Below are positions 21,981 through 32,706 of a stretch of DNA of 64,000 bases, one piece after another. The translations under genes were made by a program, and so were the position numbers. The DNA comes from Clostridium sp. UBA3947. Its GTDB lineage: Bacteria > Bacillota > Clostridia > Clostridiales > Clostridiaceae. The first letter of the stretch is position 1; each line of letters begins with the position of its first letter. The DNA lies in the NCBI GenBank assembly GCA_002385545.1, contig DGDR01000038.1:1793-65792 (forward strand), given 5' to 3'. Below the pieces are notes generated by a model. The model saw only the letters and a list, made by a program, of their open reading frames with translations, was not told where the DNA came from and did not search any database.

Positions 21981-23120
21981 ATGGAGAAAAATAAAAAGAT
22001 TGGATTAGTTATTCTATTAGTAATAGGAATTCTCATATGTACATGGAGTATCTATAACTCTGTTATAACCATGAATCAAAGCAGCAATTCTACTACAGAG
22101 CTAGCCAATAATACTACTTCTAACTCTAATAATAATGGCAGTCCTGTAATAATTGACGATGACAATGATGATATTGATGACGACACCTCAACTACAAATA
22201 AAGAACCTTCCTCAGAGGAAGATGTTTTTAACAATGATCAAGATGAAAGCACAGAAAAGTATATCATTTACACTGTGGAAAAGGATGAAACCCTAAAGGA
22301 TATATGCGAAAAATATGCTGATAACTGTCCTATTCCTGTTTTATCTAAGGCTATACTTAAAATAAACAATCTAAGCAGCTCTAGCAAAATTAGTGAAGGC
22401 AAAAAAATAAAAATACCTGAAAAATATATTAATACTGGTATAAAGTACACTGTAAGAAGCGGTGATTCCCTTTCTTCTATTGCAATGCGTTTTATGAAGG
22501 ATATTGATTATTCTGAAGCCTTAGAAATTATTAAGCAGGATAACTTCTTAACCTCTGATACTATAAAAATAGGTGATGAGCTATTCATCCGAGCCGACGA
22601 CATATTAGAAGTTAATAATAAACTTGAAGATGAAGAGGACGAGGTTAATGATTCTGATAAAAAAGCTTCTAAGAATAAGAAGGTTGAAGATAAAGACAGT
22701 GAAGCTACAAGCAAAAATCAAGATCAGACAGATAATAGTGCTGCTATGAATTCCATTACTAATAGAATTGGTAACCTAGTAACCTATACAGTGAAGAAAA
22801 ATGACACACTAAAATCTATCGCTGAAAATTATGACAGAACTTGTCCTGTTAATGTTGCTAGTAAAATAATTTTAGAAATTAATGGCTTGGAAAGTAGCTC
22901 AGATATAAAGGAAGGTATGAAAATTAAACTACCTGAAAGCTATTTATCTGAAGGTAGCATATACAAGGTAAAGGCTGGAGATACTCTATCCAATATAGTG
23001 ATAGAAAATATGCCTGGAATTGATTATAACCTTGCTTTAAAGATTATTGTTGAAGACAATGATATTAAAAACTACACGATATATCCTAATCAAGAGCTAT
23101 TTATAGCATCCATAGATTAA
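21981..23120 (+). CDS. Membrane-anchored protein with four LysM domains and acidic linkers
   Basis: N-terminal TM helix; YTVEKDETL, YTVRSGDSL, YTVKKNDTL and YKVKAGDTL LysM starts; likely start 21981. Confidence 0.85.
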   Translation: MEKNKKIGLVILLVIGILICTWSIYNSVITMNQSSNSTTELANNTTSNSNNNGSPVIIDDDNDDIDDDTSTTNKEPSSEEDVFNNDQDESTEKYIIYTVEKDETLKDICEKYADNCPIPVLSKAILKINNLSSSSKISEGKKIKIPEKYINTGIKYTVRSGDSLSSIAMRFMKDIDYSEALEIIKQDNFLTSDTIKIGDELFIRADDILEVNNKLEDEEDEVNDSDKKASKNKKVEDKDSEATSKNQDQTDNSAAMNSITNRIGNLVTYTVKKNDTLKSIAENYDRTCPVNVASKIILEINGLESSSDIKEGMKIKLPESYLSEGSIYKVKAGDTLSNIVIENMPGIDYNLALKIIVEDNDIKNYTIYPNQELFIASID

Positions 23121-23122
23121 AG

Positions 23123-23158
23123 AAAAGCAGCCTCAACCATTGGTTTAAGGCTGCTTTT
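23123..23158. terminator. Bidirectional terminator between the LysM gene and thrC
   Basis: AAAAGCAGCCT...AGGCTGCTTTT. Confidence 0.85.
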
Positions 23159-23187
23159 CAAAGTATATAAAAATAGGAGAAACACTA

Positions 23188-24678
23188 CTAGTTAATAGCG
23201 AGAATTTCTTTAACTACCTGCTTCATTTCATTCTTTGAGCAAACCTTTTTATGTAAAACAGGACGTTTTTCTATATCCTTCACCGCCTTTGGAATTTCCA
23301 CACCGCTTAATTTGCACATTTCATTAATTAAAGCTATCTCGTTTATCTGCTTATATTTTTCATCAACAGCTCCCATTACTGCAGTGTTGAATTTGTACGG
23401 ACTTGCTGTTGATGCAATAACAGTAGGAGTTGTGTCTTTAGTTTCAGCTACATATTTTTTATAAGCTGTATAAGCCACAGCAGTATGAGTGTCTATTAAA
23501 TAATTATCCTTTTGGAAAACCTCTCTTATAGCTTCAAAGGTTTCTTCTTCTGAAGCATATGCTCCAAATAAATCTTCTAATCCAGCCTTCATAGAAGAAT
23601 CTATTTCATAGTATCCCTTGCTTGCAAGACTGTTCATTAAGTCTGTTACCTTGTTAGTATCTTCTCCACTAAGGAAATACAATAAACGCTCAAGGTTGCT
23701 GGAGATTAGTATATCCATTGATGGTGAAGAGGTTAAAACAAATTCTCTTCTCTTATCGTAAACTCCTGTCCTAATGAAGTCATATAAAACTTTATTTTCG
23801 TTAGAAGCACAAATTAATTTATTTATAGGCAAACCCATCTTTTTGCCTAGATAAGCTGCAAGTATGTTACCGAAGTTTCCTGTTGGAACATCTATATTTA
23901 CTTTATCCCCTAAGTTAATGTCGCCATTTCTAACCAGTGTTAAATAAGCATAGAAATAATAAGCTACCTGTGGAACTAGTCTTCCTATATTTATAGAATT
24001 AGCTGAGGAAAACATACTATTGTTAAGCTCCATAGACTTTTTAAATTCCTCATCATTAAATATAGCTTTTACCCCATTTTGGGCATCGTCAAAATTGCCC
24101 TCTATACCAATTACATAGGCATTAGAGCCTTCATGGGTAGTCATTTGAAGTTTTTGAATTTGACTAACTCCGTTCTCTGGGAAAAATACTATAATTTTAA
24201 TACCTTCTACATTTGAAAAGCCCTCTAAGGCTGCCTTACCAGTATCCCCTGAAGTAGCGGTAAGAATCACTACTTCTTTATTAATATTCTGCTTTTTAAG
24301 AGATGTGGTAAGTAAATGAGGCAAAATTGAAAGAGCCATATCTTTAAAGGCTATAGTTGGACCATGGAAAAGCTCTAAGAAATATGCACCACCAGCTTTT
24401 CTTAAGGGTGCTATCTCCTCATGGTCAAACTTCTTATCGTAAGCCTTGTTTACACAGTTCATTAGTTCCTCTTCAGTGAAGTCTGTAAGGAACTCTTTCA
24501 TTACTGTGTAGGCAACTTCCTTATAACCCATGTTCACCATAGAGCTTAAATCTACAGACAATTTTGGTATGGCATTTGGTACGTAAAGACCTCCATCTGG
24601 TGCAATTCCAGCAATTATAGCTTGGCTAGAGCTAATAAGCTCCCCATTACCTCTAGTACTTTTATATAAAACTGACAT
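23188..24678 (-). CDS. thrC: Threonine synthase
   Basis: STRG, GLYVP, ELFHGPTIAFKD (PLP Lys), ATSGDTG, PTGNFGN, IDTHTA. Confidence 0.96.
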   Translation of the reverse strand: MSVLYKSTRGNGELISSSQAIIAGIAPDGGLYVPNAIPKLSVDLSSMVNMGYKEVAYTVMKEFLTDFTEEELMNCVNKAYDKKFDHEEIAPLRKAGGAYFLELFHGPTIAFKDMALSILPHLLTTSLKKQNINKEVVILTATSGDTGKAALEGFSNVEGIKIIVFFPENGVSQIQKLQMTTHEGSNAYVIGIEGNFDDAQNGVKAIFNDEEFKKSMELNNSMFSSANSINIGRLVPQVAYYFYAYLTLVRNGDINLGDKVNIDVPTGNFGNILAAYLGKKMGLPINKLICASNENKVLYDFIRTGVYDKRREFVLTSSPSMDILISSNLERLLYFLSGEDTNKVTDLMNSLASKGYYEIDSSMKAGLEDLFGAYASEEETFEAIREVFQKDNYLIDTHTAVAYTAYKKYVAETKDTTPTVIASTASPYKFNTAVMGAVDEKYKQINEIALINEMCKLSGVEIPKAVKDIEKRPVLHKKVCSKNEMKQVVKEILAIN

Positions 24679-24682
24679 ATAA

Positions 24683-25891
24683 TCACTCCCCAATAAAATA
24701 ATCCATTAACTTATAGCCCTCTTGGAAGAATAAGCCTGACTTAGCCGCTCCATCTTCATCAAAGTTATAAGGATTTTCCTTAATCATTCTACTATCATAT
24801 ATTAAAAATGGTACCGGATCACTGGTATGAGTTCTCAGTGATAAAGGTGTTGGATGGTCCGGCAAAACCATAATTCTATAATCTTCAGATTGTTTACCTA
24901 ATTCCTGTATTAAGTAGCCCGCAATTTTCTCATCTATTAGCTCTATTGACTTAACCTTGTTATCTCTTTCATTTCTATGTCCACACTCATCTGGGGCCTC
25001 AATATGAATATATACAAAATCATTACCATTGCTCAAGGCTTCCAAAGCTGCCTTAGCCTTTCCAGTATAATTAGTGTGTATATTTCCTGTGGCACCTTCT
25101 ACTTCTATTACCTGAAGATCCGCACATTTTCCTATACCTTTAATTAAATCCACTGCAGATATAACAGCTCCCTTTAGTCCATACTTTTCAGGGAATTTTG
25201 TTAGTAGTGGCTTTTTACCTTCACCCCATATCCATATGGAATTTGCAGGCTTTAAGCCTCTTTTTATTCTATCTTGGTTAATAGGATGATTTTCTAATAT
25301 AGCTACGCTTTTCTCCATCATTTCTAAAATAACTCCACTATCCTTACCGGTAGGCAAATATTCCTCAATCCTTCTACCAATAATATCATGAGGGGGTATT
25401 AGCTTATAATCTGAAGGAGCTTTATCCCAAACCAAAAGATGTCTATAGCTTATCCCAGGATAGAGCTTCATAGCATCAGTTTCAAGCTCCTTTTTTAAAG
25501 CTTCAATTAAAACAGCTGCCTCCTCTGTAGTTATTTCATCTGCACTGTGATCTAGCATAATTCTATCCTTATAACTTTCTGCCTCCGATAAAGTAACCAC
25601 ATTGCATCTAAAGGTTACGTCTGTATCCTTTAAGTCAATTCCCATACTAGCTGCCTCAAAGGGTGAACGTCCAGTATAATAGAGCTCTGGATTATAACCC
25701 ATTACAGCTAAATTGGCTGTATCACTTCCTGGAGGCATCCCCTGTGGTATTGTACTTACTAAACCAACCTCTCCTTTAGCTGCAAGATAATCAAAATTTG
25801 GTGTTTTGGCGTATTGCAGAGGTGTTTTGCTTCCAAGTTCTTCTACTTTATAATCGGCCATACCATCTGCAAGGATAACTACGTATTTCAA
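24683..25891 (-). CDS. apgM: ApgM-like cofactor-independent phosphoglycerate mutase family protein (proposed homoserine kinase, TIGR02535-like)
   Basis: ADGMAD, PGSDTAN, TGRSPFEA, FVYIHIEAPDECGH, LPDHPTP, HTSDPVP; lies between hom and thrC. Confidence 0.85.
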   Translation of the reverse strand: MKYVVILADGMADYKVEELGSKTPLQYAKTPNFDYLAAKGEVGLVSTIPQGMPPGSDTANLAVMGYNPELYYTGRSPFEAASMGIDLKDTDVTFRCNVVTLSEAESYKDRIMLDHSADEITTEEAAVLIEALKKELETDAMKLYPGISYRHLLVWDKAPSDYKLIPPHDIIGRRIEEYLPTGKDSGVILEMMEKSVAILENHPINQDRIKRGLKPANSIWIWGEGKKPLLTKFPEKYGLKGAVISAVDLIKGIGKCADLQVIEVEGATGNIHTNYTGKAKAALEALSNGNDFVYIHIEAPDECGHRNERDNKVKSIELIDEKIAGYLIQELGKQSEDYRIMVLPDHPTPLSLRTHTSDPVPFLIYDSRMIKENPYNFDEDGAAKSGLFFQEGYKLMDYFIGE

Positions 25892-25903
25892 AAAAAGACC
25901 CCC

Positions 25904-27190
25904 TTAAATATTTTCTACCCTAATTATGTTCTCTACTTTAATAACTGAAGGTAATTCTTTAATTTCCTTAATGGCTTCATTTATATTCCTTTCAAGAGTT
26001 TCGTGAGTAATGAATACTAAAGGTACTTCCTTTTCATTTTTACCCTTTTGAATTACACTAGCTAAGCTTACACCATTTTTACCAAATATAGAGGAAATAT
26101 CCGCCAAAGTTCCTGGGTTATCTAATACAGCAAATCTTAGATAGTATTTACATACAGTATCATCCATACTTTGAACCTTAAACTGACAATTAGCCTCCTT
26201 CTTTGCTGGAGCTGTATAATCATCTATACCATTTCTCAATACAGAGATAATATCTCCAACTACTGCACTACCTGTAGGTAAATCCCCAGCTCCTTTTCCG
26301 TAAAGCATTAAGTCTCCTACTGCATTTCCTTTAATGAAAATAGCATTAAAGGCATCATTTACATTAGCTAGTGGATGTTTAGAAGGAATCATAGCTGGAT
26401 GTACTCTAAGCTCCAGTTCACCGTTCTTTTCCTTTGCTATAGCTAATAGCTTAATAGTATATCCAAATTCCTTTGCGTATTGAATATCCACAGCAGTAAT
26501 TCCTGTAATACCTTCTCTATATATGGAATCTACATGGACTATACTATTGAAGGATAAATCGCTTAATATGGCTAGCTTATACATAGCATCATAACCTTCT
26601 ATATCTGAAGTTGGATCAGCTTCAGCAAAACCTAACTCTTGAGCTAGCTTAAGAGCCTCATCAAACTCCATGCCTTCATGAGACATTCTTGTAAGAATAA
26701 AGTTAGTAGTACCATTTATAATTCCTAATATTTCAACAATTTTGTTTGCAGTTAAACTCTCACTTATTGCGTTGATTATAGGAATACCACCAGCTACACT
26801 GGCCTCAAAGTAAAGCATTACTCCTTCCCTTTTAGCTGCCTCCAAAATCTCCTTACCCTGAGTAGCTAAAAGGAACTTATTTGCTGTTACCACATGCTTC
26901 TTCCTACTAATAGCTTTTAATATATAGTCTTTAGCTGGCTCTACACCACCCATAAGTTCCACAACAATCCTAATGCTGTCATCCTCTAATATGTCATTAA
27001 AATCTGTTGTTATTATCTCTTCAGGGACATCCACATTTCTAGCTTTATTTTTATTTCTTACAAGAATTTTAGCCACTTCAATTTCATAGCCGGATCTTAT
27101 GCTAATTTCTTCTCTATTTTTGTCAAGTATCTTCCATACTCCACTTCCTACATTTCCTAGACCCAAAATTGCAATTCTAACTTTCTTCAT
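25904..27190 (-). CDS. hom: Homoserine dehydrogenase with C-terminal ACT domain
   Basis: GLGNVG, VTANK, FEASVAGGIP, NGTTNFIL, EADP, GKGAG, ACT domain. Confidence 0.96.
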   Translation of the reverse strand: MKKVRIAILGLGNVGSGVWKILDKNREEISIRSGYEIEVAKILVRNKNKARNVDVPEEIITTDFNDILEDDSIRIVVELMGGVEPAKDYILKAISRKKHVVTANKFLLATQGKEILEAAKREGVMLYFEASVAGGIPIINAISESLTANKIVEILGIINGTTNFILTRMSHEGMEFDEALKLAQELGFAEADPTSDIEGYDAMYKLAILSDLSFNSIVHVDSIYREGITGITAVDIQYAKEFGYTIKLLAIAKEKNGELELRVHPAMIPSKHPLANVNDAFNAIFIKGNAVGDLMLYGKGAGDLPTGSAVVGDIISVLRNGIDDYTAPAKKEANCQFKVQSMDDTVCKYYLRFAVLDNPGTLADISSIFGKNGVSLASVIQKGKNEKEVPLVFITHETLERNINEAIKEIKELPSVIKVENIIRVENI

Positions 27191-27258
27191 AAAAAATAGC
27201 CTCCCTTATTACTATACAGCAATAAGCCAAGCCTAGACTTGACTTATTGCATACTATA

Positions 27259-29187
27259 CTATTGTTGTGCCACAACCATATTTAATAGGCCACCTGATTT
27301 TAGCATCTTTCTTTGTCTTTCCGTTACTAATAAAGCCATTTCGTATTCTGTGTTTTGGGTAAGATTTTTCACAATTACCTTCTCGCTTTCAACCTGCTTT
27401 TCGGCATTTTCAATAACAAGCTCATCAAAAACCTGAATACTATCATAATCCTCTTCATTAATAAATACCAAAGGTATAATTCCATTGTTAATTAAGTTGT
27501 CTCTGTGAATTCTAGCAAAGGACTTAGCCATAACAGCTTTTACTCCCAAGTATAAAGGTGCAAGAGCGGCATGCTCTCTGCTAGAGCCCTGTCCGTAGTT
27601 AGAACCTCCAACAATAATACCTCTGCCGTTTTCCTTAGCCTTCTTTGGAAATTCACTATCGCAAGGAACTAAGCAAAAATCAGCTAAATAAGGTATATTA
27701 GATCTAAATGGAAGTAACCTAGCGTTAGAAGGCATAATATGGTCAGTAGTAATATTATCTCCTACCTTAGTAAGAACTTTTCCCTCAACCTTTGAAGCAA
27801 GAGGCTTACCCTTAGGGAAAGGTTTAATATTTGGCCCTCTCTTTACTTCCACTTTGCTACCATCTTCTGCTGGTGGTACTATGAGGTTATCATTAATAAT
27901 AAACTCCTCTGGCATTGAAATATCATAATCTTCACCAAGATCTCTAGGATCTGTTATTACTCCTGTAATTGCAGAAGCCGCTGCCACCTCTGGGCTAACT
28001 AAATAAACATCAGCATTGGCAGTTCCAGATCTACCTTGGAAGTTTCTGTTAAAGGTTCTTAAGGAAACTCCATTTGTGGCTGGTGCTTGCCCCATACCTA
28101 TACAAGGACCACATGAGCTTTCAAGTAGTCTTGCTCCTGAAGATATAAATACCTCTAAGGCACCATTATGAGCCAAAGTAGTTAATACTTGCTTTGATCC
28201 TGGTGAAATTACTAGAGAAACCTCTTCTGCCACAGTATGACCATCTAAAATAGATGCCACCTTCATCATATCCACATAAGAGGAGTTTGTACAACTACCT
28301 ATTGCTACTTGGTTTACCTTTACTCCCTTTAATTCTCTAACAGGCTTCACATTATCAGGACTGTGAGGACAAGCAATTAAAGGTTCTAATTCAGATAAGT
28401 TGATTTCTATTTCCCCATCATAAACTGCATCTTCATCGGCCTTGAGCTCTACAAAATCCTTCTCTCTGCCTTGAGCCTTAAGATACTCTAAGGTTCTTTC
28501 ATCACTTGGGAAGATGGAAGTAGTTGCCCCTAGCTCAGCTCCCATGTTGGTTATAGTGGCTCTCTGAGGAACTGTTAAGGTTTTAACTCCCTCTCCACTG
28601 TATTCAAAAACTTTACCTACTCCGCCTTTAACAGAAAGTCTCCTTAAAAGTTCTAATATAATATCCTTAGCTGAAACCCAAGGTCTTAGAGCTCCTGTTA
28701 GCTTTACCCTTATTACCTCAGGCATATTTAAATAGTATTCTCCACCGCCCATAGCCACAGCTACGTCTAATCCGCCAGCACCAATAGCTAACATTCCTAT
28801 TCCACCACCGGTTGGAGTATGACTATCGGAACCTAACAAAGTTTCTCCTGGAACACCAAATCTTTCTAAATGTACTTGGTGACATATTCCATTACCAGGC
28901 TTGGAAAAATATATCCCATGTTTTTTTGCAACGGTTTGAATATATAAATGATCATCTGCGTTTTCTGGACCAGCTTGTAGCATATTGTGATCAATATAGG
29001 CTACAGATCTTTTGGTCTTTACCCTATCTATGCCCATAGCTTCGAACTGAAGATATGCCATAGTACCTGTTGAATCTTGAGTCAAGGTCTGGTCTATACG
29101 AATTGCAATTTCTTCGCCTTTAACCATATTCCCTTTTACAAGATGCGACTTTATTATTTTTTGTACAACATTATTTCCCACTGCCAT
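27259..29187 (-). CDS. Aconitate hydratase (short clostridial type)
   Basis: DSTGTM, GICHQ, DSHT, GSCTN, CGPCIG, NRNF, TTDHI, YGQGSSREHA. Confidence 0.92.
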   Translation of the reverse strand: MAVGNNVVQKIIKSHLVKGNMVKGEEIAIRIDQTLTQDSTGTMAYLQFEAMGIDRVKTKRSVAYIDHNMLQAGPENADDHLYIQTVAKKHGIYFSKPGNGICHQVHLERFGVPGETLLGSDSHTPTGGGIGMLAIGAGGLDVAVAMGGGEYYLNMPEVIRVKLTGALRPWVSAKDIILELLRRLSVKGGVGKVFEYSGEGVKTLTVPQRATITNMGAELGATTSIFPSDERTLEYLKAQGREKDFVELKADEDAVYDGEIEINLSELEPLIACPHSPDNVKPVRELKGVKVNQVAIGSCTNSSYVDMMKVASILDGHTVAEEVSLVISPGSKQVLTTLAHNGALEVFISSGARLLESSCGPCIGMGQAPATNGVSLRTFNRNFQGRSGTANADVYLVSPEVAAASAITGVITDPRDLGEDYDISMPEEFIINDNLIVPPAEDGSKVEVKRGPNIKPFPKGKPLASKVEGKVLTKVGDNITTDHIMPSNARLLPFRSNIPYLADFCLVPCDSEFPKKAKENGRGIIVGGSNYGQGSSREHAALAPLYLGVKAVMAKSFARIHRDNLINNGIIPLVFINEEDYDSIQVFDELVIENAEKQVESEKVIVKNLTQNTEYEMALLVTERQRKMLKSGGLLNMVVAQQ

Positions 29188-29222
29188 ACCTCCATTTGAA
29201 ATCCATATCTTCTGTTGAGATA

Positions 29223-29355
29223 TGAATATTTATGCATACTTTTTGCAAATTAGATTTTCTAAATTAATCACTGCTAGATATATTGAGAATTTTATCATAC
29301 TTTTAATATGATATCAATTATTTTTAATACTGTGGCAATTTTGATAGCGTTTTCT
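29223..29355 (-). promoter_or_regulatory. Aconitase-operon promoter with an ARG box and a cre-like site
   Basis: TTGATA(29317-12)-17-TAAAAT(29294-89); ARG-box consensus TGAATATTTATGCA at 29223-29236; cre-like TGATAGCGTTTTCT at 29342-29355. Confidence 0.6.
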
Positions 29356-29384
29356 TTTTACTTTATTAATAAATTCTCAAAAAA

Positions 29385-29411
29385 ACACTGAAAGTGACAT
29401 ACTTTCAGTGT
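29385..29411 (-). terminator. argC terminator
   Basis: ACACTGAAAGT-gacat-ACTTTCAGTGT with a poly-T tail on the minus strand. Confidence 0.8.
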
Positions 29412-29437
29412 AAAGGGGAAAATTATCTAAACCGCTA

Positions 29438-30484
29438 CTATGGAATCATAGCAGCGAGGTTTAGCCCAAGGCTTTCATCTAGACCAAACATCAAATTCAT
29501 ACACTGTACTGCTTGGCCTGCTGCTCCTTTTATTAAATTGTCAATAACTGATACTGCTACTATATTTCCAGTTCTCTCATCTAATCTTGCATATACATGA
29601 CAGAAATTGCTACCTCTCACATGTCTTGTCTCTGGAGCTTTGTCTACCACTTTAACAAAATAATTCTTCTTATAAAATTCCTTATATAAATCTAATAAAG
29701 AGTTTTGATCAATATTTACTATGGATTTACTATAGCAAGTAGCAATGATTCCTCTATTCATTGGAATTAAATGAGGAGTAAAGGTAAGATTTAACCTTTC
29801 CTCAGCAATTAAGCTGAGCTCCTGTTCAATTTCTGGTGTATGCCTATGGGTACCAATTCCATAAGCCTTTACAGACTCATTCACTTCACAGAATAGATTA
29901 GCAACATTTGCATTTCTACCGGCACCAGATACCCCAGATTTCGCATCTATTATTATTGAATTTGCATCCACAAGTTTATTAGCTAATAGTGGAGCCAAGG
30001 CTAAAATAGATGCAGTAGGATAACAACCAGGATTAGCAATGAGTGAAGCTTTAGAAATCTTATTCCTATTTAACTCCACTAGTCCGTATACACTATATTC
30101 CAGTGCTGAAGGTAATTCATGCTTAACACCGTACCACTTCTCGTATTCAGCCTTGCTTTTTATTCTATAATCAGCACCTAAGTCTATAACCTTAACCCCT
30201 TGTTTCAATGCTTTTTCAACTAAAGTAAAGCTCTTTCCATGGGGTAAAGAAATAAACAATACATCTATCTTTGAAAGCATATTTTCTGCTTCTTCCATAT
30301 CCACTGTAGTTGCATTTATAATGTCAAAAAAATTACCATATACTTCGCTATATTTTACACCTGCATTACTATGGGCATTTAAAAATACTATATCTACTTC
30401 TGGATGATTATGTAATATCCAGGCTAACATTGCACCAGCATATCCTGTAGAACCTATTATTCCTGCTCTTATCAAAGCAATCAC
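29438..30484 (-). CDS. argC: N-acetyl-gamma-glutamyl-phosphate reductase
   Basis: GSTGYAG, LPHG, DLGADYR, ANPGCYPT, SGVSGAGR, HRHTPEI, DNLIKGAAGQAVQ; start may be the TTG at 30475. Confidence 0.96.
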   Translation of the reverse strand: MIALIRAGIIGSTGYAGAMLAWILHNHPEVDIVFLNAHSNAGVKYSEVYGNFFDIINATTVDMEEAENMLSKIDVLFISLPHGKSFTLVEKALKQGVKVIDLGADYRIKSKAEYEKWYGVKHELPSALEYSVYGLVELNRNKISKASLIANPGCYPTASILALAPLLANKLVDANSIIIDAKSGVSGAGRNANVANLFCEVNESVKAYGIGTHRHTPEIEQELSLIAEERLNLTFTPHLIPMNRGIIATCYSKSIVNIDQNSLLDLYKEFYKKNYFVKVVDKAPETRHVRGSNFCHVYARLDERTGNIVAVSVIDNLIKGAAGQAVQCMNLMFGLDESLGLNLAAMIP

Positions 30485-30525
30485 CTCTTGTTGTTATTAT
30501 GCCAAATAATAAATATATAATGTAA

Positions 30526-30640
30526 TGTATATTTATAAACTGATTGTATACGAAAGGAAATAATTATGCAATACTTTTTATAAAAATTCATTTACTTTAT
30601 TGAATTAATATATGAAAGTGTTATAATAATACCATTATCG
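30526..30640. promoter_or_regulatory. Divergent argC/argB control region with several ARG boxes (ArgR/AhrC)
   Basis: TGTATATTTATAAA (30526), GAAATAATTATGCA (30557), TTTATAAAAATTCA (30577), TGAATTAATATATG (30601); argB promoter TTGAAT-16-TGtTATAAT. Confidence 0.65.
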
Positions 30641-30669
30641 TTGTTCGCTTATAGCAAAGGAGGTTTAAT

Positions 30670-31530
30670 ATGTCCACTGATTTAAATACACTAGCAATGG
30701 AATTACTCCCCAAAATAAAAGAATATAAAAATAAAATTTTTGTCGTTAAATATGGTGGAAGCATAATGGAAAACAAGGAGGCCCAAAGGGCATTTTTATC
30801 TGATGCATCCTTATTAAAAGCGCATGGAGTTAATTTAGTTATAGTCCATGGTGGCGGTCCAGCTATAAACAAATGGCTTAAAAGAGCAAATATAGAAAGC
30901 CAATTTATAAACGGCCTTAGAGTAACAGATGAAGATACAATGGAAATTGTGGAGATGGTGTTATCCGGCAGTGTTAATAAAAAGCTCACTGCGGAGCTTA
31001 ATGGTCTTGGTGTAAAGGCTATAGGCATAAGCGGAAGAGATTGTCAGCTAATTAATGCAAGAAAAAAATATTCATATAATAATGGAGAGCGTATAGATAT
31101 TGGTTATGTGGGAGAAGTTACATCTATAAACAAGGATTTCCTACTCCAATTAATAGATAATGATTTTATACCAGTAATATCTCCAGTAGGATGTGACTCA
31201 TTAGGAAATCCTTACAATATCAATGCAGATTATGCTGCTGCTGCAGTGGCCTGTGCCTTAGAAGCTGATAAGCTTATAATAATGACGGATATAGAAGGTG
31301 TTTATAAGGATATTAATGATAAAAGTTCGCTTATTAAGAGACTGACATCTCAGGATATAAATAAATACATAGAGGCAGGCATAATAACTGGTGGAATGAT
31401 ACCTAAAATGTATTGCTGCCAAGATGCTCTTGAAAAGGGAGCAAAGGCTGTTCATCTCATTGATGGCAGAAAGGAACATAGCTTATTAATGGACACTTTT
31501 ACCCAATCTGGCACAGAAATAGTTAAATAA
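30670..31530 (+). CDS. argB: Acetylglutamate kinase
   Basis: VVKYGGS, VHGGGP, GLRVTD, NINAD, GGMIPK, IDGR. Confidence 0.95.
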   Translation: MSTDLNTLAMELLPKIKEYKNKIFVVKYGGSIMENKEAQRAFLSDASLLKAHGVNLVIVHGGGPAINKWLKRANIESQFINGLRVTDEDTMEIVEMVLSGSVNKKLTAELNGLGVKAIGISGRDCQLINARKKYSYNNGERIDIGYVGEVTSINKDFLLQLIDNDFIPVISPVGCDSLGNPYNINADYAAAAVACALEADKLIIMTDIEGVYKDINDKSSLIKRLTSQDINKYIEAGIITGGMIPKMYCCQDALEKGAKAVHLIDGRKEHSLLMDTFTQSGTEIVK

Positions 31531-31542
31531 GGAGGTATTGCT

Positions 31543-32706
31543 ATGGATACTAGCCATGTAATGGCCACTTACAAAAGATATGATATTACCTTAGTTGAAG
31601 GAAAAGGCTCCAAGGTTTATGACAATAATGGTAAAGAGTATATTGATTTCGTTCAGGGCGTAGCAGTAAATTGCTTAGGCCATTGTAACGACAAAATCGT
31701 TGAAACTATTACCAAACAGAGCAATAAGCTAATGCATGTATCAAATTACTTCTGGAATGAATATAATATACAACTATCAGATTTACTATGTAAAAACAGC
31801 TGCTTTGATAAGGTATTTATCTGCAACAGCGGTGCAGAAGCTGTGGAAGGCTCTCTAAAAGTAGCAAGGAAGTATGGCAAAATTAAAGGTGGAGAAAATA
31901 AAAACGTAATTTTATATATGAACAGCTCCTTCCATGGTAGAACCTTAGGCTCCCTTTCAGTTACAGGACAGAGTAAATATCAAAAAGATTATTTACCTTT
32001 ATTGCCTAGGGCTAAGGAGGTAACCTTTAATGATATTCAGTCCTTAAAGGATAATTTTAATGAGGATGTATGTGCTGTCATTATAGAGCCTATTCAAGGT
32101 GAAGGTGGAGTAAATGTAGCAAATAAAGAGTTTTTACAGGCTGCTAGAGATTTATGCGATATATATGATGCTCTTTTAATATTCGATGAAATCCAATGTG
32201 GAATTGGAAGACTAGGAACTCTCTTTGCTTATGAGCGTTTTGGTGTAAAGCCTGATGTAGCTGCTATTGCAAAGGCCTTAGGTGGAGGTTTCCCTATTGG
32301 TGCCTTCCTAACTAATGAAAGAGCTTCTGTATTAACCTACGGCGATCATGGTAGTACCTATGGTGGAAATCCTTTAGCCTGCGCAGTTGCTACAACTGTT
32401 ATAAAAGAGCTTACAGAAGGTGGTGTTATTGCTTCTGCAAAGGAGCAAGGTCAATATCTTGTAAATAAGCTTCAAGAATTAAAGGATAAATACGATTATA
32501 TTACAGAAATAAAAGGTTTGGGTCTTCTATTAGGCATAAGAATTAAAGAAAATCCTTCAGTTTTTATAAGCAAATGTATTGAAAAGGGCTTGCTTTTAAT
32601 CACCGCTGGTGCTGATGTTATAAGATTGCTACCACCATTAAATGTTAGCAAGCAGGATATTGATACTGCAATTAATATCCTGGAAGCTGTTATTAAGGAA
32701 AGTTGA
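31543..32706 (+). CDS. argD: Acetylornithine aminotransferase
   Basis: NSGAEA, FHGRT, EPIQGEGG, DEIQCG, AKALGGG, HGSTYGGNP. Confidence 0.93.
   Translation: MDTSHVMATYKRYDITLVEGKGSKVYDNNGKEYIDFVQGVAVNCLGHCNDKIVETITKQSNKLMHVSNYFWNEYNIQLSDLLCKNSCFDKVFICNSGAEAVEGSLKVARKYGKIKGGENKNVILYMNSSFHGRTLGSLSVTGQSKYQKDYLPLLPRAKEVTFNDIQSLKDNFNEDVCAVIIEPIQGEGGVNVANKEFLQAARDLCDIYDALLIFDEIQCGIGRLGTLFAYERFGVKPDVAAIAKALGGGFPIGAFLTNERASVLTYGDHGSTYGGNPLACAVATTVIKELTEGGVIASAKEQGQYLVNKLQELKDKYDYITEIKGLGLLLGIRIKENPSVFISKCIEKGLLLITAGADVIRLLPPLNVSKQDIDTAINILEAVIKES

What the first reader, a model, noticed from the sequence alone, without database searches (positions are those of the whole stretch)
24683..25891. Phosphoglycerate-mutase-fold protein occupies the thrB slot (hom - apgM - thrC)
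Seen: tightly coupled hom, apgM-like and thrC genes (12-nt and 4-nt gaps) with no GHMP-type thrB. Established: threonine synthesis needs homoserine phosphorylation between Hom and ThrC, and TIGR02535 proposes this family as a homoserine kinase from gene context alone. Inference: a metal-dependent phosphotransferase moving phosphate from a phosphoglycerate-type donor to homoserine via a phospho-Ser intermediate (PGSDTAN), i.e. possibly an ATP-independent route to phosphohomoserine.
Basis: partly seen in the sequence, partly recalled or inferred. Interest (0 to 1): 0.55.

Follow-up and report, generated by a model that had tools for sequence, protein, structure and literature searches.

The report
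Known alternative homoserine kinase HomK
The gene between homoserine dehydrogenase and threonine synthase is an intact member of HomK (ThrB2, TIGR02535), a phosphoglycerate-mutase-like enzyme family already shown in other bacteria to replace homoserine kinase, so the locus is ordinary and only the family's phosphate donor remains unknown.

Summary

The genome is rated 100% complete. It has aspartate kinases, Asd, Hom and ThrC. It has no GHMP ThrB, no APH-type ThrB and no ThrH. Two canonical gpmI genes already cover glycolytic mutase activity.

The middle protein scores above the trusted cut-off of TIGR02535. It keeps the nucleophile Ser56 and all seven other residues aligned to the binuclear metal site. 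It has Glu298 where true mutases have Lys. Its model matches PH0037 (2zkt).

This family is already described as ThrB2 (Ashniev 2022) and HomK (GapMind 2020 and 2026). BT2402 is needed for threonine synthesis, and BT2402 and a Dehalococcoides homolog rescue E. coli thrB. The scan has also flagged HomK-like genes in at least 33 other genomes.

Its phosphoglycerate donor is untested, and the literature leans towards phosphoserine.

New support found here: five diverged natural HomK-ThrC fusion proteins.

Caveats found here: 29 of 110 HomK-positive Clostridia genomes also carry thrB, and a large family of membrane-anchored HomK-domain proteins is unexplained.

The parts
25904..27190 (-). hom, homoserine dehydrogenase with a C-terminal ACT domain (428 aa)
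   Evidence: NF004976 at 578 bits; Pfam Homoserine_dh, NAD_binding_3 and ACT. ATG at 27190 and TAA at 25904.
24683..25891 (-). homK (ThrB2, TIGR02535), an ApgM-fold homoserine phosphotransferase, 402 aa, TTG start
   Evidence: TIGR02535 at 528.9 bits against a cut-off of 446.3. Pfam PhosphMutase and Metalloenzyme. AlphaFold model pLDDT 96.3, best structural match 2zkt with TM 0.83-0.87.
25724..25726 (-). codon of Ser56, the predicted phospho-accepting nucleophile in PGSDTAN
   Evidence: Aligned to the GSDTAH serine of 2zkt and 3kd8. Ser in 134 and Thr in 9 of the 151 aligned sequences (P0001 plus 150 cluster representatives). Codon checked.
24998..25000 (-). codon of Glu298, the HomK specificity residue (E299 in BT2402 numbering), where mutases have Lys
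   Evidence: 2zkt and 3kd8 have Lys at this position. Glu in 139 of the 151 aligned sequences. K or Q in six low-scoring Clostridia paralogs. The numbering was checked on a Bacteroidales homolog, where the Glu is residue 299 and the PDH motif is 346/347.
24827..24991 (-). codons of metal-site residues D301, H305, D345, H346 and H355 (D9 lies at 25865-25867), plus the second HomK-specific acid, E302
   Evidence: All present. E302 is conserved in 96% of E-type sequences and found in 1 of the 8 K-type comparators.
23188..24678 (-). thrC, long-type threonine synthase (496 aa from the ATG at 24678)
   Evidence: TIGR00260 at 254 bits; Pfam Thr_synth_N, PALP and THR4_C. Start and stop codons checked.
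23122..23159 (-). intrinsic-terminator-like hairpin (15 pairs, followed by a T-rich tail) ending the unit
   Evidence: Consensus scan only.
27259..29187 (-). aconitase-family gene directly upstream, 68 nt before hom; it may be co-transcribed from a promoter-like site at 29289-29317 and is not claimed as part of the pathway
   Evidence: NF005558 at 1024 bits. The promoter-like site and the argC terminator upstream of it are consensus matches only. Intergenic sequence read.

Best explanation
The gene at 24683-25891 encodes HomK (also called ThrB2 or TIGR02535). HomK is a binuclear-metal enzyme of the alkaline-phosphatase superfamily with the archaeal ApgM fold. In this organism it makes O-phospho-L-homoserine for the threonine synthase encoded 4 nt downstream.

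Inferred mechanism: a phosphorylated donor transfers its phosphoryl group to Ser56, which sits between two metal ions held by D9, D345 and H346 and by D301, H305 and H355. The dephosphorylated donor then leaves and L-homoserine binds, with its alpha-amino group attracted by the HomK-specific acids Glu298 and Glu302. The phosphoryl group passes to the gamma-hydroxyl of homoserine. The irreversible ThrC reaction pulls the exchange forward.

Shown here: family membership, intact catalytic residues, the Glu signature, the operon position, absence of every other known homoserine kinase, a complete remaining pathway, and natural HomK-ThrC fusions in other organisms.

Inferred only: the ping-pong chemistry and independence from ATP.

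The donor is unknown. My rough odds are phosphoserine or another amino-acid phosphate 0.35, 2- or 3-phosphoglycerate 0.25, PEP 0.15, and something else 0.25.
For: - Family score: TIGR02535 gives 528.9 bits against a trusted cut-off of 446.3.
- Active site: D9, S56, D301, H305, D345, H346 and H355 are all present.
- Specificity residue: Glu298 aligns with Lys in the solved mutases 2zkt and 3kd8 and with K or Q in six sub-threshold Clostridia paralogs. It corresponds to residue 299 in a Bacteroidales homolog whose numbering matches BT2402.
- Further signature positions: Y149, V247, G266 and E302 are all in the HomK state.
- Structure: model pLDDT is 96.3 and the best match is 2zkt.
- Operon: hom, homK and thrC with 12-nt and 4-nt gaps and a terminator after thrC. 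Clostridium thermarum, whose HomK is 78% identical, has the same arrangement.
- Other kinases: no ThrB, APH-type ThrB or ThrH was found.
- Mutase need already met: two gpmI genes score 750 and 724 bits.
- Rest of the pathway: two aspartate kinases and an EA-type Asd are present.
- Fusions: five HomK-ThrC single polypeptides that are only 52-70% identical to one another, plus a further one of similar length (902 aa) in a sampled Clostridia genome whose identity to those five was not checked.
- Distribution: across 200 Clostridia genomes, 81 have HomK only, 44 have ThrB only and 29 have both; the odds ratio is 0.37, uncorrected for phylogeny.
- Literature: bioRxiv 10.1101/2024.10.14.618325, PMC7311316 and PMC9026213.
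Against: - No biochemical assay of any HomK has been published in the papers I could read. The E. coli rescue by BT2402 was weak (OD600 rose by 0.14 in 47 h), and an earlier attempt failed.
- This particular protein is untested.
- HomK and ThrB are not mutually exclusive. 29 of 110 HomK-positive Clostridia genomes also have thrB, and in one of them HomK is transcribed divergently from an ACT-hom-thrB operon. The family may therefore do something beyond replacing ThrB.
- Only 27 of 80 related loci have a threonine-pathway gene within 5 kb.
- The broader models TIGR00306 and NF003242, both named phosphoglycerate mutase, score slightly higher (549 and 551 bits) than TIGR02535.
Confidence: 0.85

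Rival explanations
1. It is what automatic annotation calls it: a cofactor-independent phosphoglycerate mutase acting in glycolysis or gluconeogenesis, and its place beside hom and thrC is coincidental.
For: NF003242 (551 bits) and TIGR00306 (549 bits) are both above their cut-offs, and the public names of its homologs say so. The fold and the catalytic core are those of the solved archaeal mutases.
Against: - The genome already has two full-length gpmI genes.
- The mutases' Lys is replaced by Glu298, and a second acid, E302, is added.
- The gene is translationally coupled to hom and thrC, and the same arrangement is kept in C. thermarum.
- The domain is found fused to ThrC in nature.
- Homologs rescue E. 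coli thrB.
Confidence: 0.04
2. It is an L-threonine (or other hydroxy-amino-acid) phosphotransferase, like the CbiU proposed for the Dehalobacter cobalamin operon. It would make threonine phosphate rather than phosphohomoserine, and homoserine would be phosphorylated by an unknown enzyme.
For: Family members next to cobD have been proposed as L-threonine kinases (PMC4285132; GapMind appendix). The co-occurrence of HomK with ThrB in 29 genomes would fit a second function.
Against: No CobD reaches the cut-off in this genome; the best hit is 176 bits against 290.6. The gene sits between hom and thrC, not in a cobalamin cluster. No other candidate for homoserine phosphorylation was found.
Confidence: 0.03
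3. It belongs to the threonine pathway but is not the phosphorylating enzyme itself (for example a regulator or partner of ThrC), and an unidentified kinase makes phosphohomoserine.
For: Earlier reports of this scan describe catalytically dead HomK relatives that are kept in threonine operons of other phyla. The E. coli rescue by BT2402 was weak.
Against: In this protein every catalytic and metal-binding residue is intact and conserved. Two diverged homologs do rescue thrB.
Confidence: 0.07

Closest known systems
HomK / ThrB2 / TIGR02535 (BT2402 of Bacteroides thetaiotaomicron; DET_RS08350 of Dehalococcoides mccartyi)
   Same: Above the family cut-off. Same length and fold. Same catalytic Ser, metal-site residues and specificity Glu. 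Same position beside hom and thrC. Same absence of thrB.
   Different: Nothing of substance differs. It is a Clostridia member, 53% identical to the one Bacteroidales homolog retrieved. Here hom is monofunctional with an ACT domain, whereas the Bacteroidetes operon is described as having a bifunctional enzyme.
Archaeal cofactor-independent phosphoglycerate mutase ApgM (PH0037 = 2zkt; Thermoplasma 3kd8 and 3idd; SSO0417)
   Same: Same fold (TM 0.83-0.87). Same phospho-serine nucleophile and binuclear metal site. About 27-34% identity.
   Different: Lys becomes Glu at position 298, with an extra Glu at 302. The gene context is threonine synthesis. The predicted reaction moves phosphate between two different molecules rather than within one.
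ThrB, the GHMP-family ATP-dependent homoserine kinase
   Same: Same pathway step and product. It occupies the equivalent operon neighbourhood (thrC-thrB) in the six sampled genomes of this organism's own family.
   Different: Unrelated fold and chemistry, since ThrB uses ATP directly. None is present in this genome.
ThrH of Pseudomonas aeruginosa (phosphoserine:homoserine phosphotransferase)
   Same: A precedent for making phosphohomoserine without ATP, by transfer from a phosphomonoester through a phospho-enzyme intermediate.
   Different: ThrH is described as not homologous to HomK; that it is a HAD-fold enzyme is my own knowledge. No ThrH hit was found in this genome.

Membership tests
HomK / ThrB2 / TIGR02535 | Scores above the trusted cut-off of the TIGR02535 model | tested here: met
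   528.9 bits against a cut-off of 446.3 over positions 1-396 of 397. The genome search gave 526.3 bits.
HomK / ThrB2 / TIGR02535 | Catalytic serine and the residues of the binuclear metal site are intact | tested here: met
   D9, S56, D301, H305, D345, H346 and H355 are present. The ligand numbers D274, H278 and H325 printed in the GapMind appendix could not be matched to the alignment. By homology the ligands would be about residues 302, 306 and 356 in BT2402 numbering.
HomK / ThrB2 / TIGR02535 | Glutamate at the specificity position (E299 of BT2402), where mutases have lysine | tested here: met
   Glu298 aligns with Lys in 2zkt and 3kd8 and with K or Q in six Clostridia paralogs. The numbering was confirmed on a Bacteroidales homolog.
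HomK / ThrB2 / TIGR02535 | Encoded with threonine-pathway genes in a genome that lacks ThrB | tested here: met
   hom-homK-thrC operon. No ThrB, APH-type ThrB or ThrH was found.
HomK / ThrB2 / TIGR02535 | Forms O-phosphohomoserine (rescues a thrB mutant; activity in vitro) | not testable with these tools
   Published only for BT2402 and DET_RS08350, and only by complementation.
Cofactor-independent phosphoglycerate mutase (ApgM, TIGR00306 / NF003242) | Scores above the model cut-off | tested here: met
   549 bits (cut-off 320) and 551 bits (cut-off 426). By cut-off alone these models do not separate this HomK-type protein from mutases.
Cofactor-independent phosphoglycerate mutase (ApgM, TIGR00306 / NF003242) | Lysine at the substrate-facing position three residues before the metal-binding aspartate | tested here: not met
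   Glu298 stands in place of Lys.
GHMP homoserine kinase ThrB | GHMP kinase fold and a match to the thrB model | tested here: not met
   The protein gave no GHMP or thrB match in the NCBIfam or Pfam scans, and its fold is alkaline-phosphatase-like.
CbiU-like L-threonine kinase (ApgM family in cobalamin operons) | Encoded beside cobD or the nucleotide-loop genes, in a genome that needs threonine phosphate | tested here: not met
   No CobD reaches the cut-off in this genome. The neighbours are hom and thrC.

The most novel reading that the evidence does not exclude
HomK takes its phosphate from O-phosphoserine, so that serine and phosphohomoserine are made in a single step. In Clostridia, where no canonical SerB was found in any of 200 sampled genomes, it would also act as the missing phosphoserine phosphatase, in the way ThrH does in Pseudomonas. 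This would couple serine and threonine synthesis and save one ATP per threonine. The two HomK-specific acids (E298 and E302) beside the metal site would then bind the amino group of both donor and acceptor.
Probability: 0.12. Interest if true: 0.6.

Novelty: already known. Interest (0 to 1): 0.2.

Why it matters
For this locus, the practical result is an annotation correction. The gene should be called homoserine phosphotransferase HomK, not phosphoglycerate mutase, and the organism should be predicted to make its own threonine.

For the field, the open point is the phosphate donor of HomK. That decides whether threonine synthesis in Bacteroidota, in many Clostridia (110 of the 200 genomes sampled here) and in Dehalococcoides needs no ATP at this step. 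The HomK-ThrC fusions found here add independent support for the assignment and offer a natural construct for a coupled assay.

Tried and rejected
- **Riboswitch, T-box or leader upstream of the operon:** an Rfam scan of 22000-32000 at E <= 0.1 found nothing.
- **SerB as a clue to the donor:** the genome lacks canonical SerB, but so do all 200 Clostridia genomes sampled, with or without HomK. This is uninformative.
- **Glycerate kinase as a clue to the donor:** a GlxK is present and no MOFRL-type kinase was found. SerC and a short SerA-like dehydrogenase are also present. Neither the phosphoglycerate nor the phosphoserine donor can be excluded from this genome.
- **In-place swap of thrB for homK within the organism's own family:** relatives carry thrC-thrB in a different order, so this is not a one-for-one slot replacement.
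- **Retrieving BT2402 itself:** this was not possible with the tools. A Bacteroidales homolog with matching numbering was used instead.
- **L-threonine kinase role:** rejected for this genome because no CobD was found.
- **Neighbourhood mining for a donor-related gene:** in 80 related loci only thrC, hom, aspartate kinase and an ACT protein recur.

Full report
**Observation**

On the minus strand the window carries three tightly packed genes.
- hom is at 25904-27190. It scores 578 bits on NF004976 and has a C-terminal ACT domain.
- A 402-aa ApgM-like gene is at 24683-25891. It has a TTG start and a GGGGG ribosome-binding site.
- thrC follows. Its true start is the ATG at 24678, not the upstream TTG given by the ORF list.

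A 15-pair terminator-like hairpin follows thrC. An aconitase-family gene lies 68 nt upstream of hom and may share the transcript. No Rfam element lies in 22000-32000.

**What the middle gene is**

- It scores 528.9 bits on TIGR02535, "proposed homoserine kinase", whose cut-off is 446.3. It scores about the same on two models named phosphoglycerate mutase.
- Its nearest solved relatives are the archaeal ApgM proteins 2zkt, 3kd8 and 3idd (E 1e-64 to 1e-57).
- An AlphaFold model built from 26 homologs has pLDDT 96.3. It matches 2zkt at TM 0.83-0.87 and matches phosphopentomutase, iPGM and alkaline phosphatase more distantly.
- The nucleophile Ser56 and the metal-site residues D9, D301, H305, D345, H346 and H355 are all present.
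- At position 298 it has Glu where 2zkt and 3kd8 have Lys.
- Six Clostridia paralogs that score below the TIGR02535 cut-off have K or Q at that position. Four sampled TIGR02535 members have E.
- In the alignment of P0001 with the 150 best cluster representatives (151 sequences), 139 have E.
- In a Bacteroidales homolog the Glu is residue 299 and the PDH motif is 346/347. This matches the BT2402 numbering in the literature.
- Further positions that separate E-type from K-type sequences are Y149, V247, G266 and E302. All are in the HomK state here.

**Genome context**

The assembly is 3.02 Mb in 247 contigs and is rated 100% complete.
- It has no ThrB. The best hit to the model is IspE. The remaining GHMP kinases are the mevalonate-pathway enzymes and a sugar kinase.
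- It has no APH-type ThrB and no ThrH.
- It has two aspartate kinases and an EA-type Asd. The homoserine-phosphorylating step is therefore the only gap in the pathway.
- Two canonical gpmI genes lie about 1 kb apart on one contig, so a further mutase is not needed.

**Literature**

TIGRFAMs proposed this role from gene context. Ashniev et al. 2022 (PMC9026213) named the family ThrB2 and showed a complementary occurrence with thrB, including in Clostridium. GapMind 2020 (PMC7311316) reported that BT2402 mutants need threonine, but rescue of E. coli failed. GapMind 2026 (bioRxiv 10.1101/2024.10.14.618325) reports rescue of E. coli thrB by BT2402 and by a Dehalococcoides homolog. It names the enzyme HomK and identifies E299 as a specificity residue. 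It argues from glycerate-kinase co-occurrence that phosphoglycerate is not the donor and speculates on phosphoserine. This scan has also reported HomK-like genes in at least 33 other genomes. The notable ones there were catalytically dead; this one is intact.

A search for longer relatives found HomK-ThrC single polypeptides of about 903-916 aa in five clusters. They are only 52-70% identical to one another. In each, HomK residues 1-400 are joined by a linker of a few residues to a complete ThrC. A further 902-aa fusion lies in a sampled Clostridia genome; its identity to those five was not checked. That divergence makes an assembly artefact unlikely. The papers I read do not mention these fusions.

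Clostridium thermarum, whose HomK is 78% identical, has the same hom-homK-thrC order.

**Distribution and caveats**

- Among 200 sampled Clostridia genomes, 110 have a TIGR02535 member above cut-off and 73 have ThrB.
- 81 genomes have HomK only, 44 have ThrB only, 29 have both and 46 have neither.
- The negative association (odds ratio 0.37) is not corrected for relatedness.
- The 29 genomes with both genes are a real wrinkle. In one of them HomK is transcribed divergently from an ACT-hom-thrB operon.
- All six sampled genomes of this organism's own family use thrC-thrB. Three of them have K-type ApgM paralogs and none has HomK.
- Only 27 of 80 related loci have thrC, hom, aspartate kinase or the ACT protein within 5 kb.

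**Phosphate donor**

Nothing in this genome settles the donor. It has GlxK, SerC and a short SerA-like dehydrogenase. It lacks canonical SerB, but so do all 200 Clostridia genomes sampled. The two HomK-specific acids next to the metal-binding Asp301 fit a cationic amino group on the substrate. That is an inference, not a result.

**Verdict**

The functional reading is correct in substance and already established for the family. This is an ordinary, intact member of a known family.

Noticed in passing
L126:6143-8851 (+); proteins P0272-P0275: Natural HomK-ThrC fusion proteins of about 903-916 aa. There are five clusters that are 52-70% identical to one another, plus a further 902-aa one in a sampled Clostridia genome that also carries thrB. 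The papers I read do not mention them.
   Followed up: yes
P0122, P0130, P0331; L127:6001-9369 (+): More than 100 clusters of proteins of about 740-1400 aa, mostly 950-1250. Each has an intact E-type HomK domain, then an acidic or basic low-complexity linker, one transmembrane helix and a roughly 500-600-aa outer part with no Pfam match. Public names call them only phosphoglycerate mutase. In the one context examined, cysE and cysS follow and no threonine genes are nearby. Their function is unexplained.
   Followed up: partly
L110:4079-8207: In some Clostridia both kinases sit at one locus: an ACT-hom-thrB operon on one strand, with a full E-type HomK transcribed divergently from it. 29 of 110 HomK-positive sampled genomes also have thrB, so HomK is not always a simple replacement.
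   Followed up: partly
L017 (contig C198 67500-76500, just beyond the window end) and L001:1402-2244: The genome carries a mevalonate-pathway operon (mevalonate kinase, diphosphomevalonate decarboxylase, phosphomevalonate kinase, type 2 IPP isomerase). It also carries ispE of the MEP pathway.
   Followed up: no
L009 and L010 (contig C35 3373-4887 and 5858-7372): Two full-length gpmI genes lie about 1 kb apart on the same strand. They look like a tandem duplication of the glycolytic mutase.
   Followed up: no
L114-L119: ApgM-family paralogs in other Clostridia (including this organism's family) have K or Q at the HomK specificity position. Two of them have Glu in place of the metal-binding His305. 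Their roles are unassigned.
   Followed up: partly
window 27259-29187 (-); L032:5778-7703: An aconitase-family gene (NF005558) lies directly upstream of hom here. In one related locus it lies 1.2 kb downstream of homK. This may be chance.
   Followed up: no
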